Shown: piece by piece, positions 44,978 through 47,456 of the stretch
How the letters are laid out: each line of letters starts with the position of its first letter
Numbering within the stretch: the first letter of the stretch is position 1
Virus genome (UHGV): UHGV-1789659
Source: a virus
Length of the DNA: 47,750 nt
Direction: 5' to 3' (one strand)
Position numbers and translations under genes: made by a program
The notes under the pieces: generated by a model
The model's database searches: none
Told to the model about the DNA's origin: nothing
Seen by the model: the letters and a program-made list of their open reading frames with translations, nothing else

Positions 44978-45176
44978 GCGGGAGAAGGAAACGCTTCATG
45001 AAATCAGTAAGTGGCCGGAGTTCCCTGAGTACTGGAGGCCTAAAACGCGGGCTAAGTTAGAGCGTTTAGGGTTGGTTGCAAACGTTTCTGAAACGAAGTG
45101 TTCGGCCAACTACCAGTTAACTGATAACGGGAAAGTATTGCTACAGCAATTAGTAGAATCAGGAGCATTAGAATGA
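44961..45176 (+). CDS. hypothetical small protein
   Basis: 71-aa ORF with GGAG-containing RBS region, overlapping the previous small ORF. Confidence 0.4.
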   Translation: MIVLSKREKETLHEISKWPEFPEYWRPKTRAKLERLGLVANVSETKCSANYQLTDNGKVLLQQLVESGALE

Positions 45177-45199
45177 TTCCATACATCTAATTAGCTTTT

Positions 45200-45325
45200 A
45201 TGGTTGGCTTCCTTATCGGCTTCGGCATCTGTCGTGATTTAATTAAGCAGGAACTTAAAACCAAAACACTGTGCATCGGAAAGCGCGTGTATCGGGTAGT
45301 TCATGAAACAAAGGTGAAAAAATGA
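45200..45325 (+). CDS. small ORF (41 aa), truncated paralogue of the 44798 membrane protein
   Basis: VGFLIG...C...IK.....G.R.YR.V..T shared with the 44798..44977 product; stop overlaps the next start (ATGA). Confidence 0.3.
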   Translation: MVGFLIGFGICRDLIKQELKTKTLCIGKRVYRVVHETKVKK

Positions 45326-45612
45326 GCAAATTAACTTCTTGGGAATGGTGGTTGGCCACCTATTTCTTAGCGGCCGGAGTCGCATTCGCCTTTTACGTAG
45401 GTCAGTTAGTCGTAAAACTGTTGCTTATTAAATTTGCTAGTCATAAACGTATCGATGATGGTCTGTGGCGTCTTGGTACCCTGGTGGAAACTCGCTACGG
45501 GCAACTTAAGGAGAACGAAACCATTACTATCCAAGCGAAACGATTCACTGCCACCATCACAAGAACACCTGATCGTAGAGTGGCCTTGATCAAAAAAGTC
45601 ACAACCGAATAA
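45322..45612 (+). CDS. small membrane protein
   Basis: 96-aa ORF with N-terminal TM helix (WWLATYFLAAGVAFAFYVGQLVV). Confidence 0.45.
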   Translation: MSKLTSWEWWLATYFLAAGVAFAFYVGQLVVKLLLIKFASHKRIDDGLWRLGTLVETRYGQLKENETITIQAKRFTATITRTPDRRVALIKKVTTE

Positions 45613-45621
45613 AAATACAAT

Positions 45622-45643
45622 GATAAGTATTTACTTACTTATC
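45622..45643. promoter_or_regulatory. GATAAGTATTTACTTACTTATC palindrome
   Basis: GATAAGTA / TACTTATC arms with 6-nt spacer at the start of the noncoding tRNA region. Confidence 0.4.
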
Positions 45644-46391
45644 TTTTATGTATAAGATGACTTTGTTTTCGTTGAGACGCGACTGTTTGAACTTAAATAC
45701 AAGTGCAAACGAAGAAGTCTATCTGGCAGTAGCCTAATAAGCCAAACACCAGCGAGGTCAGTTTCCAGCCTCGTTACCGAAATGGGACACACTGAGCGAG
45801 TGTGATTGCAGAACGCAGGAGGGAACATGAGTGTTCCCTCCGATGAAGTAACAGAATGGGCGGTCGGTATATTTTCAACTCCATATGACTCCCGGATTCT
45901 TAGCCACTGACCGCCCATCCTGTTACGTCATTTTGTTCAATTATGTCGTTTATACTGGGTTAAAAAGCGGCGACGTAGCCCGGCTGGTATGGTTAGCCAG
46001 CACACAACGTTGAGGCCATTACATTTTTATCAATTCTAAGGTTCTATTCACAGAGATACCGGCGAGCGTTGATATGTAACATGTTGGGCAAACATTCAAT
46101 CGGAGTAGTGGCCTCAACGTTGTGAAGACAGGATTGTTGTGTAGGTTTAACCACTGTTGCCATTGGTGCCTGTTTTCACAACAAATGATTCCATACATCA
46201 CATTGTATAAATTACAAAGTAGGTGCTGTCCTCAGAAACATCATCTACTTAAAGAGTTTGCCTTCTACTATTGAGCGAAGTCGAAAGCGTCTGGCACTAA
46301 CGAAAAGTGCAAGTAGCGGTGCGTTTCTTGGCAGAAACTAACACCGCCGCGATTGGCACTGTTGAGTAATAAATACTGTCAGTGCTGAATT

Positions 46392-46466
46392 GATGGTGTA
46401 GCTCAGCGGTAGAGCAGTTGGCTGTTAACCAACTGGTCGGTGGTTCGACTCCATCACTCCCCACCA
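46392..46466 (+). tRNA. tRNA-Asn(GTT)-like; acceptor stem pairs poorly, so possibly a pseudogene
   Basis: D-arm GCTC-AGCGGTA-GAGC, anticodon loop CTGTTAA, T-arm GGTGG-TTCGACT-CCATC, 3-prime ACTCCCC-A-CCA; 5-prime strand GATGGTG gives only 3 of 7 pairs. Confidence 0.5.
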
Positions 46467-46470
46467 AATT

Positions 46471-46546
46471 GCCGGTTTAGCTCAGTTGGTAGAGCAGTCG
46501 CTTTGTAAGCGAATGGCCAGCGGTTCGAGTCCGTTAACCGGCACCA
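46471..46546 (+). tRNA. tRNA-Thr(TGT)
   Basis: Acceptor GCCGGTT/AACCGGC pairs perfectly; D-arm GCTC...GAGC; anticodon loop TTTGTAA; T-arm AGCGG-TTCGAGT-CCGTT; encoded CCA. Confidence 0.8.
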
Positions 46547-47192
46547 ACATAATATTGAGAACATTGGCGTAACGGGGTCATATCCCAATCTATGAATAAA
46601 TGTTGCGTTGCCGCGTGACAACCAGTGTTCTCAACATTGTGGTGAATGCACAGGCTGATGTGCCGCAACTACAGTAGTGCGCGCTTTGCGGGGCTTGCTA
46701 CAACCCTGTGTCGGAGCTCAGCACCGACCATCACAATTTGGCTCTCTTGCAACAGCATAACGCTGGAATATGTCCAACCTGGTGCGGTCTGATCACCCGC
46801 CGTTAGCTCCACGAAACGGAGCGCACAACAGATAAGAGAACTTCCCATATGGGGCTTGTCTTAAATGCATCGAGTTCTCTTATCGCTGTGTCACAGACAA
46901 AATTCCGACAGCCCTGTTTATCATCGGACGCAACCTAAAAGGTCGAGGCAAAGCCAGGTAATAGCGGAGGGAGTGACACAGCACACAACAGGTAAGAGCA
47001 TTTTCAGAGTTCGACTCTCTGAGTTGCCATTCGTGGTGGCACGCGAGACGTGAATGCTCTTTCCGTTGTGGTGAATGTGGCTAAGCGCACGCGGGGAAAT
47101 GGTTATATTGATCATTTTATGACATCTGTGGCCCCGTTCACGGTGGATAACCAGCCAAAGGACACCGGGAGGCACCCGGCACCACAACAATT

Positions 47193-47278
47193 GGAGAGTA
47201 GGGAGCATGGTGCTCAAGCGGTCTTGAAAACCGCCCCATTGCGCAAGCGATGATGGTTCGATTCCATTACTCTCCGCC
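47193..47278 (+). tRNA. tRNA-Ser(TGA)-like with long variable arm
   Basis: Acceptor GGAGAGT/ACTCTCC, anticodon stem-loop GCGGT-CTTGAAA-ACCGC, T-loop TTCGATT, encoded CCA; D-arm spacing atypical. Confidence 0.6.
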
Positions 47279-47433
47279 AGACACAGCGTTGAGCGGTTTG
47301 GCCTTTTAATCACCCAGATTAAGACTCCGCTAACATAAACCAGACCGCTCAACGCTGTGATAGACAATTACGGCAGACGTTCTTAACCATAGCTTGCTAA
47401 CATCCTAGCAACACTTTTTTCAGCGCAAAATTC

Positions 47434-47456
47434 AAAGGGGCTTCGGCCCCTTTTTT
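47434..47456. terminator. bidirectional rho-independent terminator
   Basis: AAA-GGGGC-TTCG-GCCCC-TTTTTT between the tRNA region and a convergent minus-strand gene. Confidence 0.7.

What the first reader, a model, noticed from the sequence alone, without database searches (positions are those of the whole stretch)
45613..46391. Approximately 780-bp noncoding region upstream of the tRNAs, rich in long inverted repeats
The region contains a 9-bp-stem hairpin GGAGGGAAC/GTTCCCTCC (45818-45841), 10-bp arms ATGGGCGGTC/GACCGCCCAT about 50 nt apart (45852-45920), and 15-bp arms CACAACGTTGAGGCC/GGCCTCAACGTTGTG about 80 nt apart (46000-46113). There is no convincing ORF. This suggests structured ncRNA(s), a processing region for the tRNA transcript, or an origin or packaging site.
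Basis: seen in the sequence. Interest (0 to 1): 0.45.

Follow-up and report, generated by a model that had tools for sequence, protein, structure and literature searches.

The report
Phage RNA that mimics, targets tmRNA
This "noncoding" stretch encodes a conserved, tightly folded phage RNA that carries its own copy of the bacterial ribosome-rescue tag message but no tRNA part, and whose 5' end is complementary to the host rescue RNA (tmRNA), so the phage probably blocks or re-programmes host ribosome rescue.

Summary
All three inverted repeats exist, fold far better than shuffles (z -5.5 and -6.2) and keep pairing through compensatory changes in relatives.

The window is an SSU5-like phage-plasmid. 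The region is the + strand leader of a tRNA operon, made of RNA modules.

The first ~340 nt (45665-46001) belongs to an unannotated RNA family. I found it in SSU5-like plasmids (including Yersinia pestis pMT1), P1, HK620-like prophages and Felix-O1-like phages. It has three features:
- A tmRNA-like message: A-rich linker, GCA resume codon, and a 10-codon tag (here ANEEVYLAVA**) whose variation sits at wobble positions.
- Pseudoknots after the tag, supported by covariation.
- An invariant 5' end (GUUUUCG...GCGACU) that is antisense to host tmRNA across its resume codon. This is statistically strong in the P1/lambdoid class but weak in this window's class taken alone.

No tRNA-like domain was found by ARAGORN, Rfam or manual search.

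Best reading: the RNA pairs with host tmRNA and blocks or replaces its message. That step is inferred, not shown.

I found nothing like it in Rfam, in RefSeq annotation or in the searched literature.

The rest of the region (46003-46391) is a chain of long, probably processing, hairpins.

The parts
45630..45658 (+). Predicted sigma-70 promoter: -35 TTTACT (45630-45635), 17-nt spacer, -10 TAAGAT (45653-45658). It would start the RNA at about 45664-45666.
   Evidence: Read from the sequence. It matches 8 of 12 positions, below the 9-of-12 threshold of the scan tool, which reported nothing. Relatives keep a -35 box, a 17-nt spacer and a -10 box (TATGAT, TATAGT, TAAGAT) 7 nt before GTTTTCG. Felix-O1-like phages have TTGACA-17-TAAGAT at the same distance. 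No transcript data.
45665..45688 (+). 5' 'anti-tmRNA' segment. Block 1 is GUUUUCGUU (45665-45673) and block 2 is GCGACUGUUU (45679-45688), separated by a variable 5-nt loop. It is complementary to E. coli tmRNA nt 81-105, which cover the linker with A86, the resume codon G90-C91-A92 and codons 2-5.
   Evidence: RNAduplex gives -26.3 kcal/mol for phage nt 1-25 against tmRNA 81-105, versus -13.8 against the phage's own message. Alignment with the antisense strand of ssrA is shown. GTTTTCG and GCGA..T.TTT are invariant in 17 relatives while the loop between them varies. On its own this class is not significant (460/2000 shuffles score as well). Homologous 5' ends in P1, lambdoid and L165 copies are significant (0/2000).
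45689..45704 (+). A/U-rich linker before the resume codon (GAACUUAAAUACAAGU), with A at -4 as in E. coli tmRNA (A86).
   Evidence: blastn aligns 45702-45747 with ssrA nt 79-125 (32/47 identities, E 0.007 against that single sequence).
45705..45740 (+). tmRNA-like message: resume codon GCA, 10-codon tag ANEEVYLAVA, then two stop codons TAA TAA. No start codon and no Shine-Dalgarno sequence.
   Evidence: Every genuine copy has exactly 10 codons, AN[DE]..., a hydrophobic-A-A or A-V-A end, and in-frame stop(s). Across 42 distinct sequences the variation sits at wobble positions (codon 3 entropies 0/0/1.40; codon 10 0.16/0/1.40).
45752..45787 (+). Pseudoknot A. Stem 1 is 45752-45757/45769-45774. 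Loop bases 45763-45767 pair with 45783-45787.
   Evidence: helices 2 and 3: 100% paired, with compensatory changes in each. The same pseudoknot occurs in lambdoid and Felix-type copies (helices 1-2: 99-100% paired, 5 pairs changed on both sides).
45788..45804 (+). Stem of pseudoknot B (CACACU/AGUGUG, 45788-45793/45799-45804). The second stem is unclear in this class.
   Evidence: helix 4 (C-G to G-C change in L021/L049). In lambdoid and Felix-type copies both stems are seen, with changes on both sides (helices 3-4).
45818..45841 (+).
   Evidence: helix 5: 6 of 10 pairs change on both sides among relatives. Loop length and sequence vary freely.
45843..45931 (+). A conserved A-G mismatch sits at 45847/45927.
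   Evidence: helix 6: 25 pairs, 97.4% paired, 7 changed on both sides.
45942..46001 (+). 3' end of the conserved ~340-nt unit. Helix 45942-45948/45971-45977 may form a pseudoknot with GGGU 45957-45960/GCCC 45978-45981. A terminal hairpin follows at 45983-45988/45996-46001.
   Evidence: helices 7 and 8 (98-100% paired; one compensatory pair in helix 8). The divergent relatives L021/L049 are homologous up to ...GCCAGCACA and then switch to unrelated DNA, which marks the unit's end. The pseudoknot partner was read by eye only.
46003..46124 (+).
   Evidence: helix 1: 19 pairs, 98.5% paired, 3 changed on both sides. Similar stems with CACAAC/GUUGUG feet recur at 46545-46644, 46825-46890, 46984-47073 and 47282-47359, and in P1, HK620 and Carvaje.
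46119..46182 (+). Hairpin GUUGUGAAGACAGG/CCUGUUUUCACAAC. It shares the GUUGUG foot with the previous stem, so the two pairings are alternatives.
   Evidence: helix 2: 5 of 8 inner pairs change on both sides.
46185..46199 (+). Conserved 15-mer ATGATTCCATACATC, with a second exact copy at 45173-45187. It may be an internal promoter or a protein-binding site.
   Evidence: 2 exact copies, 0.18 expected. It is conserved in all SSU5-like relatives. Function unknown.
46200..46392 (+). Remaining leader, with local hairpins (for example 46295-46311, 46314-46345, 46350-46388). It runs directly into tRNA-Asn at 46393.
   Evidence: Minimum-free-energy fold. It is only partly conserved among relatives. Covariation was not tested.

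Best explanation
The region is the + strand leader of a phage tRNA operon, made of separate folded RNA modules.

Module 1 (about 45665-46001) is a tmRNA-derived RNA that has lost, or never had, the tRNA-like domain. It keeps a linker, a GCA resume codon, a translated 10-codon degradation-tag message with stop codons, and flanking pseudoknots. It begins with a short segment complementary to the host tmRNA across that RNA's own resume codon.

Proposed mechanism:
1. The RNA is made from its own promoter, so the anti-tmRNA segment sits at the extreme 5' end.
2. That end anneals to host tmRNA nt 81-105. In P1 and lambdoid relatives the pairing reaches nt 54-105 and invades pseudoknot 1. This masks the host message.
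3. Host trans-translation is then either blocked, or the phage message, now tethered beside pseudoknot 1 of a charged, SmpB-bound host tmRNA, is read in its place. Stalled proteins would then receive the phage-specified tag.

The rest of the region (46003-46391) is a chain of long stems. They most likely act as processing or insulating hairpins, of the kind RNase III cuts, separating the modules from each other and from tRNA-Asn/Thr.

Shown here: the structures and their covariation; the tmRNA-like message and the coding-type constraint on it; the linkage of the 5' segment to the message; the complementarity to E. coli tmRNA; and the failure to find a tRNA-like domain.

Inferred: transcription and the 5' end; pairing in vivo; blocking or message replacement; and processing of the stems.
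For: Structure:
- Fold z-scores are -5.5 and -6.2.
- Pairing is 96-97% with many compensatory pairs in three alignments, against 30-49% in slid controls.
- Invariant G-U pairs fix the strand.

tmRNA-like message:
- blastn to E. coli ssrA nt 79-125.
- ARAGORN recognises the 'resume consensus' and the tag in a relative.
- The tag has 10 codons in every genuine copy, with AN[DE] at the start, Y/F/M/V at position 6, a hydrophobic-AA or AVA end, and in-frame stops.
- Variation is at wobble positions, and 39 of 42 distinct tags have stops in the +1 frame.

Antisense segment:
- The 5' ends align with the antisense strand of ssrA nt 105 to 54.
- Local-alignment scores beat 2000 shuffles for the lambdoid copy L016, P1 and L165 (0/2000). 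HK620 gives 4/2000 and Michonne 24/2000.
- Duplexes with tmRNA are -39 to -46 kcal/mol, z -3.5 to -5.
- Every representative maps to the same tmRNA site, ending at nt 105.
- GTTTTCG lies 39-59 nt upstream of the resume codon in 120 of 120 copies found by the tag alone.
- The segment is invariant, while the phage's own codons 3-5 and positions -3 to -1 differ from the host and vary freely. It therefore matches the host message (-21 to -28 kcal/mol) much better than its own (-12 to -18).
- Substitutions in block 2 among lineages (C/U opposite G87, G/A opposite U85) keep pairing to the host.
- Cofolding is favourable: ddG -12.4 for the window and -25.5 for the lambdoid copy.
- The exact 29-nt target occurs in ssrA of Escherichia, Klebsiella, Enterobacter, Kluyvera, Citrobacter and other species.

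No tRNA-like domain:
- ARAGORN finds none in the window or in 130 loci. Its single 'permuted' call is built from neighbouring tRNAs.
- Rfam tmRNA models give no hit at E<=10.

From my own knowledge: synthetic anti-ssrA oligonucleotides against this same stretch are used to block tmRNA in ribosome display (Hanes and Pluckthun 1997). tmRNA tolerates replacement of pseudoknot 1 by a hairpin.
Against: - There is no expression, 5'-end or interaction data. The promoter is weak by consensus, and the scan tool reports none.
- In this window's class the complementarity is short: 9 + 10 bp including G-U pairs, around a 5x4 loop. It is not significant alone (z -1.9; 460/2000). RNAduplex energies of this size also arise for arbitrary 40-mers of the same RNA. 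For the window, the claim rests on homology with the longer P1 and lambdoid versions and on the conservation pattern.
- In folds of the isolated 5' part, the segment can pair with the phage's own tag start. A purely internal role is therefore not excluded.
- The phage tags look like ordinary ClpXP-type degrons, so the benefit of swapping messages is unclear.
- A 25-50 bp duplex next to the mRNA channel might simply jam the ribosome.
- A Y. pestis RNA-seq survey that listed two pMT1 sRNAs did not list one at this locus.
Confidence: 0.55

Rival explanations
1. Pure inhibitor. The RNA is a trans-acting antisense RNA that only silences host tmRNA, by masking its message or by RNase III cleavage of the duplex. 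The tmRNA-like part serves as a scaffold or decoy, for example for S1, SmpB or RNase R, and is not translated. This overlaps with the best explanation in the pairing step.
For: The same complementarity evidence applies. Antisense oligonucleotides to this stretch block tagging in vitro (own knowledge). No new ribosome mechanics are required.
Against: It does not explain the fixed 10-codon length, the in-frame stops, the wobble-position variation and the retained A at -4 of the phage message.
Confidence: 0.2
2. Split tmRNA with a phage-encoded partner. The message RNA works with a separate tRNA-like RNA made by the phage. Candidates are one of the long-stem modules that carry a T-arm-like hairpin, or the permuted tRNA-like gene seen in Felix-O1-like phages. 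The resemblance to the antisense of host ssrA would then be a relic of an inverted duplication.
For: Some neighbouring modules have T-arm-like hairpins (window 47006-47022; P1 and Carvaje). Michonne has a permuted tRNA-like gene about 600 nt upstream. Two-piece tmRNAs exist in nature (own knowledge).
Against: No such partner is shared by all lineages. HK620 has no tRNA-like gene at all in the leader. No acceptor-stem complementarity to the message RNA was found. The closing stems of the long-stem modules covary locally, not with the message RNA. The permuted gene lacks G3-U70. The 5' segment tracks the host sequence rather than the phage's own.
Confidence: 0.1
3. Ordinary leader. The region is only a structured 5' leader and spacer of the tRNA operon, for processing, stability or antitermination. 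The tmRNA-like piece would be a captured, decaying fragment of ssrA without a function of its own.
For: It sits upstream of tRNAs in several phages. Long stems are typical processing sites. There is no experimental evidence for a discrete RNA.
Against: A decaying fragment would not keep tag length, stops, wobble-only variation and covarying pseudoknots across SSU5-like, P1, lambdoid and Felix-O1-like lineages that share about 75% identity or less. In HK620 it occurs without any tRNA. In L021/L049 the unit is kept while everything downstream is replaced.
Confidence: 0.08
4. Conventional Hfq-type sRNA. The RNA acts on host or phage mRNAs, like the neighbouring STnc100/PasD family. The match to tmRNA would be incidental to that seed.
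For: Prophage late-leader regions do produce Hfq-bound sRNAs such as PasA-D and STnc100 (PMC8550237; bioRxiv 10.64898/2026.05.13.724894). A 5'-end seed is typical of such RNAs.
Against: In the P1 and lambdoid class the match to tmRNA is 32 of 33 aligned bases over about 45 nt in tmRNA's own order, far beyond a seed. The message part is unexplained. No terminator-type 3' end follows the unit in the window.
Confidence: 0.05
5. DNA-level element (replication origin, packaging site or recombination site) or small protein-coding genes.
For: Long inverted repeats occur at origins and pac/cos sites. A 90-codon open frame exists on the minus strand (45646-45918).
Against: The helices rely on conserved G-U pairs, which makes them strand-specific. 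There are no iterons. Open frames are not conserved in strand, frame or length. The same modules occur in unrelated genomes at unrelated positions.
Confidence: 0.02

Closest known systems
tmRNA (SsrA; Rfam RF00023 and clan)
   Same: A-rich linker with A at -4, a GCA resume codon, and a 10-codon tag beginning AN[DE] and ending in a hydrophobic-A-A-type degron with UAA(UAA). A small stem surrounds the stop codon, and H-type pseudoknots follow the message. Overall size is about 340 nt in the SSU5 class. There is direct sequence similarity to E. coli ssrA nt 79-125.
   Different: It has no tRNA-like domain: no acceptor stem, no T-arm, no CCA end, no G3-U70. ARAGORN and the Rfam models do not detect it. 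Its 5' end is antisense to tmRNA, a feature no tmRNA has. It is encoded by phages and phage-plasmids inside tRNA clusters or late-operon leaders.
Two-piece tmRNAs from circularly permuted ssrA genes (alpha-proteobacteria, cyanobacteria, some beta-proteobacteria)
   Same: A working tmRNA is assembled from two RNA molecules held together by base pairing. This shows that the tRNA-like part and the message part need not be covalently joined (own knowledge).
   Different: There, both pieces come from one gene and pair through the acceptor stem and helix 2. Here the proposed partner is the host's intact tmRNA, and pairing is through the host's message region. No permuted tRNA-like half is present in the window.
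Phage-encoded tmRNAs (mycobacteriophages Bxz1, Catera and others; Bacillus phage G) and the tRNA-like-domain-only RNA of mycobacteriophage DS6A (PMC4131195)
   Same: These phages also carry ribosome-rescue RNA genes. DS6A keeps only one half of tmRNA and is thought to interfere with host tmRNA.
   Different: Those are complete tmRNAs or the tRNA-like half. This family is the mirror image (message half only) plus an antisense segment. The 2014 exhaustive search reported none in enterobacterial phages.
Phage and prophage trans-acting RNAs (DicF, OOP, anti-sRNAs AgvB/AsxR, STnc100/PasD)
   Same: They share genomic niches: late-operon leaders and the P1 ban-operon leader next to a 'dicF-like region'. 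They act through base pairing. A sub-threshold STnc100 match lies 1 kb downstream in the same transcript.
   Different: The predicted target is a stable housekeeping RNA (tmRNA), not an mRNA or sRNA. The RNA is much larger and carries a translated-looking message and pseudoknots.
Synthetic anti-ssrA oligonucleotides used in ribosome display and cell-free translation
   Same: They are complementary to the same stretch of tmRNA (resume codon and first tag codons). They are known to suppress tagging (own knowledge; 'anti-tmRNA' reagents appear in PMC3384345 and PMC7038980, listed).
   Different: They are artificial DNA oligonucleotides and carry no replacement message.
RNase III processing stems of rRNA/tRNA operons and of phage T7 early RNA
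   Same: The 3' half of the region consists of 14-26 bp stems with conserved bulges or mismatches. The stems bracket variable interiors between stable-RNA genes.
   Different: Cleavage was not tested. The stems share a family-specific foot (CACAAC/GUUGUG), and adjacent stems share one strand, which allows alternative pairings.

Membership tests
tmRNA (SsrA) | tRNA-like domain: 7-bp acceptor stem with G3-U70, T-arm, 3' CCA | tested here: not met
   ARAGORN with tmRNA search finds none in the window or in 130 related loci. Its single 'permuted' call uses pieces of neighbouring tRNAs. Rfam tmRNA models give no hit at E<=10. Manual search found no acceptor pairing between the 5' and 3' ends of the unit.
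tmRNA (SsrA) | Resume codon (usually GCA) followed by a short tag reading frame that ends in a hydrophobic/Ala-rich degron and stop codon(s), with no start codon | tested here: met
   45705-45740 reads GCA...ANEEVYLAVA**. There are 42 distinct homologous tags, all of 10 codons, with wobble-position variation.
tmRNA (SsrA) | Single-stranded A-rich linker upstream of the resume codon, with the conserved A at -4 (E. coli A86) | tested here: met
   The window has ACAAGU|GCA, SSU5 has UAUAACU|GCA and P1 has GUAAAU|GCA, all with A at -4. The functional role was not tested.
tmRNA (SsrA) | Pseudoknots flanking the message | tested here: met
   Two pseudoknots 3' of the tag are supported by covariation (helices 2-4, helices 1-4). 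A pseudoknot 5' of the tag was seen only by eye in lambdoid copies.
tmRNA (SsrA) | Alanylation, SmpB binding and tagging activity | not testable with these tools
   Needs biochemistry.
Two-piece (permuted) tmRNA | Gene order of T-arm, acceptor 3' strand, CCA, spacer, then acceptor 5' strand followed by the message | tested here: not met
   A pattern scan for this arrangement found it only in the Felix-O1-like loci L005 and L102, about 600 nt from the message and separated from it by three tRNA genes. It is absent from the window and all other loci.
trans-acting antisense RNA against tmRNA (proposed here) | Complementarity to the target beyond chance, conserved across homologues | tested here: inconclusive
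   Met for the family: the lambdoid copy L016, P1 and L165 give 0/2000 shuffles, and all copies hit tmRNA at a site ending at nt 105. For the window's own sequence it is weak (z -1.9; 460/2000). There the support is invariance of the two paired blocks against a variable loop.
trans-acting antisense RNA against tmRNA (proposed here) | Physical pairing with tmRNA in cells and an effect on tagging | not testable with these tools
   Nothing in the searched literature.
STnc100/PasD prophage sRNAs (RF02076) | Match to the Rfam covariance model | tested here: not met
   There is no match inside 45613-46391. A sub-threshold match (38.6 bits, gathering score 47) lies at 47067-47186, outside the finding.
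tRNA or degenerate tRNA remnant | Cloverleaf detected by ARAGORN or Rfam RF00005 | tested here: not met
   tRNAs are found only at 46393-46466, 46471-46546 and 47193-47279.
Replication origin / packaging site | Iterons or other direct repeats, and DNA-level (strand-symmetric) inverted repeats | tested here: not met
   There is no repeat family in the region beyond one 12-nt pair. The helices depend on G-U pairs.
RNase III-type processing stems | Cleavage within ~20-bp stems that releases the flanked RNAs | not testable with these tools
   Only the anatomy fits: 14-26 bp stems with conserved mismatches between modules.

The most novel reading that the evidence does not exclude
Message graft. 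A phage RNA with no tRNA-like domain docks by antisense pairing onto the host's charged tmRNA. It masks the host's resume codon and presents its own linker, resume codon and tag frame at the position of pseudoknot 1. The host's ribosome-rescue machinery then writes a phage-specified peptide tag onto stalled proteins. This would be a natural two-molecule tmRNA assembled across the host-virus boundary. It would be present in P1, HK620-like prophages, Felix-O1-like phages, SSU5-like phage-plasmids and Y. pestis pMT1.
Probability: 0.3. Interest if true: 0.95.

Novelty: categorically new. Interest (0 to 1): 0.88.

Why it matters
tmRNA is the universal bacterial ribosome-rescue system and a drug target. 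I know of no natural RNA antagonist or "re-programmer" of it, and the searches made here found none.

This family would show that phages interfere with trans-translation at the RNA level, either shutting it off or redirecting what is written onto stalled proteins. It would also be the first message-only relative of tmRNA. That makes an old question directly testable: how far can the tRNA-like and message functions of tmRNA be physically separated?

The family is common and sits in model systems. It occurs in 350 of 5426 complete E. coli genomes, all unannotated, in hundreds of SSU5-like and P1-type plasmids, and in the Y. pestis virulence plasmid pMT1. It lies in P1's ban operon and in the HK620 late leader, so experiments are easy.

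It also shows that the "empty" leaders of phage tRNA clusters are dense arrays of structured RNA genes. Some annotated ORFs there, such as P1 plp/upl, may be artefacts.

Tried and rejected
1. Rfam, at gathering and at permissive thresholds, found only tRNAs. It also gave a sub-threshold STnc100 match outside the finding, plus chance snoRNA/YrlA hits that I discarded.

2. ARAGORN's one "permuted tmRNA" (L102) was rejected. Its tRNA halves come from neighbouring tRNA genes.

3. I looked for an acceptor stem or a helix-2-like long-range pairing between the 5' and 3' ends of the 340-nt unit. One candidate (GCGAC.../...GUCGU plus UUGAAC/GUUCAA) exists in the window but is not kept in SSU5 or L021, so I rejected it.

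4. I considered that the stems flanking the message in lambdoid copies (E1 3' strand with E2 5' strand) might form a helix-2 analogue. I rejected this because each stem covaries with its own local partner.

5. RNAduplex energy is not a usable statistic here. Arbitrary 40-mers of the RNA reach -30 to -36 kcal/mol with sprawling target sites. I used compact alignments and shuffles instead. These are significant for the P1 and lambdoid classes but not for the window alone.

6. The +1 frame starting at AUG/GUG (MQTKK...) was rejected as the coding frame. It is closed early in P1, it has no start codon in SSU5 or Klebsiella copies, and 39 of 42 tags have stops in that frame.

7. The minus-strand 90-codon ORF was rejected because it is not conserved.

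8. The neighbouring small proteins have no informative Pfam or PHROG matches.

9. For expression evidence, I checked the Y. pestis sRNAs sR082 and sR083 on pMT1. They map elsewhere.

10. Literature searches for the tag peptides, anti-tmRNA RNAs, phage tmRNA mimics and Pas sRNA-ssrA links found nothing relevant.

11. I could not test covariation between the 5' segment and the tmRNA of divergent hosts.
Full report
CONTEXT. The window is an SSU5-like phage-plasmid. The closest records are Escherichia phage CMS-2020a and Cyrano and E. coli plasmids at 97-99% identity. Salmonella phage SSU5 and Y. pestis pMT1 match at about 78-80%. The finding lies between a small conserved ORF (45322-45612) and tRNA-Asn (46393-46466), tRNA-Thr (46471-46546) and tRNA-Ser (47193-47279). 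The only strong intrinsic terminator nearby is at 47434-47453. The whole 45.66-47.46 kb stretch therefore looks like one + strand transcription unit.

THE OBSERVATION.
- 45818-45827/45832-45841.
- 45843-45868/45906-45931, with 26-nt arms.
- 46003-46022/46105-46124, with 20-nt arms.
- A fourth, 46119-46132/46169-46182.

Both halves of the region fold far better than dinucleotide shuffles (z -5.5 and -6.2).

On an alignment of 17 SSU5-like relatives, a model of eight helices is 97.3% paired, against 33-45% when the partners are slid. Eighteen pairs change on both sides (0 of 500 shuffles). The third stem and its neighbour give 96.9% pairing and 8 such pairs. Many invariant G-U pairs show that the structure belongs to + strand RNA, not DNA. 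No long ORF is conserved.

WHAT MODULE 1 IS. A 110-nt piece of the region (about 45653-45807) has roughly 76% matches in unrelated phages, always in unannotated DNA:
- Felix-O1-like phages, inside their tRNA clusters.
- HK620-like lambdoid phages, between pR'/qut and the late terminator.
- Klebsiella phage Carvaje.
- P1, in the C1-controlled ban operon, between a "dicF-like region" and tRNA-Asn.

Read in frame, the piece is a tmRNA message: an A-rich linker, GCA, then ANEEVYLAVA and two stops (45705-45740). E. coli tmRNA reads ANDENYALAA**. blastn aligns 45702-45747 with ssrA nt 79-125, and ARAGORN recognises the "resume consensus" and tag in a relative.

Two scans of viral contigs recovered about 190 copies. 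Every genuine copy has exactly ten codons of the form AN[DE]x-x-[YFMV]-[LM]-x-[AV]-A, plus in-frame stop(s). Among 42 distinct nucleotide versions the variation is concentrated at wobble positions. Codon 3 has entropies 0/0/1.40 and codon 10 has 0.16/0/1.40, and there are synonymous CUG/UUG and GCC/GCU/GCG variants. The +1 frame carries stops in 39 of 42. This is the signature of a translated peptide, yet there is no start codon or Shine-Dalgarno sequence.

Downstream of the tag are two H-type pseudoknots. They are supported by compensatory changes both in the SSU5 class and in the lambdoid and Felix class.

The divergent relatives L021/L049 keep everything from the promoter to ...GCCAGCACA and nothing after it. 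This defines a unit of about 340 nt, roughly the size of tmRNA.

WHAT IT LACKS. No tRNA-like domain could be found.
- ARAGORN finds no tmRNA in the window or in 130 loci. Its one "permuted" call is assembled from adjacent tRNAs.
- Rfam tmRNA models are silent at E<=10.
- I found no conserved pairing between the ends of the unit.

By its defining feature, therefore, it is not a tmRNA.

THE 5' END. Comparison with E. coli ssrA (taken from MG1655) showed that the region upstream of the linker matches the antisense strand of ssrA. The antisense of ssrA nt 105 to 54 reads AGTTTTCGTC-GTTTGCGACT-ATTTTT-TGCGGCTTTTTA. P1 and lambdoid copies read (A/G)GTTTTCGTC..GTTAGCGACT-TTGCGG.CTTTTTAG. SSU5 and Felix-class copies keep the first two blocks, GTTTTCG(T) and GCGACT plus a T-run.

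The target is the 3' part of pseudoknot 1, the linker with A86, the resume codon G90 and codons 2-5 of the host tag.

Statistics:
- Local alignment to the antisense strand beats 2000 dinucleotide shuffles for the lambdoid copy L016, P1 and L165 (0/2000). HK620 gives 4/2000 and Michonne 24/2000.
- The window (460/2000), SSU5 and L021 are not significant on their own.
- Duplex energies tell the same story: -39 to -46 kcal/mol with z -3.5 to -5, against -26.3 with z -1.9 for the window.
- RNAduplex energies are in any case a poor discriminator here.

For the window, the argument is therefore homology plus the conservation pattern:
- GTTTTCG and GCGA.T.TTT are invariant in 17 relatives, while the 5-7 nt between them vary.
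- The substitutions that do occur (C/U opposite G87, G/A opposite U85) preserve pairing.
- Every copy found through its tag alone has TTTTCG 39-59 nt upstream (120/120).
- The segment is invariant, while the phage's own codons 3-5 and positions -3 to -1 vary and differ from the host. It fits the host message about twice as well as its own.
- If its partner were the phage's own message, the two should covary. They do not.
- The exact 29-nt host target is shared by Escherichia, Klebsiella, Enterobacter, Kluyvera, Citrobacter and other genera, which matches the invariance of the segment.

PROMOTER. In the window, TTTACT-17-TAAGAT ends 7 nt before GTTTTCG. Relatives keep the -35 box, the spacing and a -10 box (TATGAT, TATAGT). 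Felix-O1-like phages have TTGACA-17-TAAGAT at the same distance. The antisense segment would thus be the extreme 5' end of the primary transcript. The scan tool does not report the window's promoter because it matches only 8 of 12 positions, and there are no transcript data.

MECHANISM (inferred). A message under coding selection, with no tRNA-like domain and no initiation signals, can only be read if something delivers it to a stalled ribosome. The only candidate supported by sequence is the host tmRNA, to which the RNA's 5' end is complementary.

In the SSU5 class the duplex would end at host nt 81, right after pseudoknot 1. In the P1 and lambdoid class it would replace most of pseudoknot 1. 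In both cases the phage linker (10-18 nt) and resume codon emerge where the host's own linker normally starts. This suggests a "message graft", to which I give a probability of about 0.3. The simpler outcome is plain inhibition of tagging, as achieved by synthetic anti-ssrA oligonucleotides (own knowledge). Cofolding is favourable (ddG -12.4 here and -25.5 in a lambdoid copy).

Arguments against are the weak complementarity in this class, possible self-pairing of the segment with the phage tag start, degron-like phage tags that give no obvious reason for a swap, and the complete lack of experimental evidence.

THE REST OF THE REGION. Positions 46003-46124 form a long closing stem around a variable interior, and 46119-46182 is a hairpin that shares its GUUGUG strand. 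Both covary.

Stems with the same CACAAC/GUUGUG feet recur downstream of tRNA-Thr and in P1, HK620 and Carvaje, where they flank the tmRNA-like module. Their interiors differ completely, and some contain a T-arm-like hairpin. I read them as processing or insulating stems around separate small RNAs. Cleavage was not tested.

A conserved 15-mer at 46185-46199, repeated at 45173-45187, may mark an internal promoter.

COMPARISON AND NOVELTY. The family shares the message half of tmRNA and fails the tRNA-half test. It is the mirror image of the tRNA-like-domain-only RNA of mycobacteriophage DS6A, and it differs from the complete tmRNAs of other phages (PMC4131195).
- It is absent from Rfam 15.
- It is unannotated in RefSeq although present in 350 of 5426 complete E. 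coli genomes. It is also unannotated in the P1, HK620 and SSU5 records.
- Full-text searches found no description of the tags, of a natural anti-tmRNA RNA or of a phage tmRNA mimic.

I therefore rate it as lying outside the known kinds, with the caveat that its function is inferred from sequence alone.

Noticed in passing
window 46393-46466: The tRNA-Asn gene looks chimeric and probably dead. From the T-loop onward it reads ...TTCGACTCCATCACTCCCCACCA. This does not pair with the 5' acceptor strand GATGGTG and resembles the 3' end of the nearby tRNA-Ser. Relatives (Cyrano, SSU5, E. marmotae plasmid, P1) have the matching CACCATCGCCA. The Rfam score is 47.7 here against 74.5 in P1.
   Followed up: partly
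window 46547-47192: The stretch between tRNA-Thr and tRNA-Ser is a chain of long hairpins with CACAAC/GTTGTG(GTG) feet, plus a sub-threshold STnc100 match (47067-47186). It is about 90% identical to the P1 'plp/upl' region, whose ORFs are annotated on the opposite strand. It is missing altogether from phage Cyrano. The P1 Plp frame is not intact here, so plp/upl may be + strand RNA genes rather than proteins.
   Followed up: partly
window 47006-47022; L003 (P1) 2838-2856; L006 (Carvaje) 1680-1700: Some of the long-stem modules enclose a T-arm-like hairpin (5-bp stem with a TTCGANT loop). This makes them tRNA-like or Y-RNA-like. Other modules with the same closing stem have unrelated interiors.
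   Followed up: no
window 45173-45187 and 46185-46199: The exact 15-mer ATGATTCCATACATC occurs twice on the + strand (0.18 expected). The second copy is conserved in all SSU5-like relatives and is followed by a -10-like TAAGAT/TATAAA. It may be an internal promoter or a regulator site.
   Followed up: partly
L005 (Citrobacter phage Michonne) 924-990; also L102: A circularly permuted tRNA-like gene. The order is T-arm, acceptor 3' strand ACCCTTC, G, CCA, then AACA, then the acceptor 5' strand GAAGGGT, TA and a D-arm. It lies in an unannotated 420-nt gap of the tRNA cluster, about 600 nt upstream of that phage's tmRNA-like module.
   Followed up: partly
L007 (Y. pestis KIM pMT1) 1243-1588: The plague plasmid pMT1 keeps the complete ~345-nt tmRNA-like unit (tag ANEDTYLAVA) directly beside caf1R. 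The downstream tRNA part has been replaced. Published Y. pestis sRNA lists do not include it.
   Followed up: partly
L003 (P1) 2076-2177 and 2171-2350: In P1 the tmRNA-like module (tag ANDDLMMVAA) starts immediately after the terminator-like hairpin of the annotated 'dicF-like region'. Both lie in the C1-repressed ban operon leader, so two candidate regulatory RNAs sit in tandem ahead of tRNA-Asn.
   Followed up: no
window 47282-47359 and 47434-47453: After tRNA-Ser there is another 20-nt-arm hairpin of the CACAGC/GCTGTG type. It is followed by the only strong intrinsic terminator of the region, the likely end of the transcription unit.
   Followed up: no
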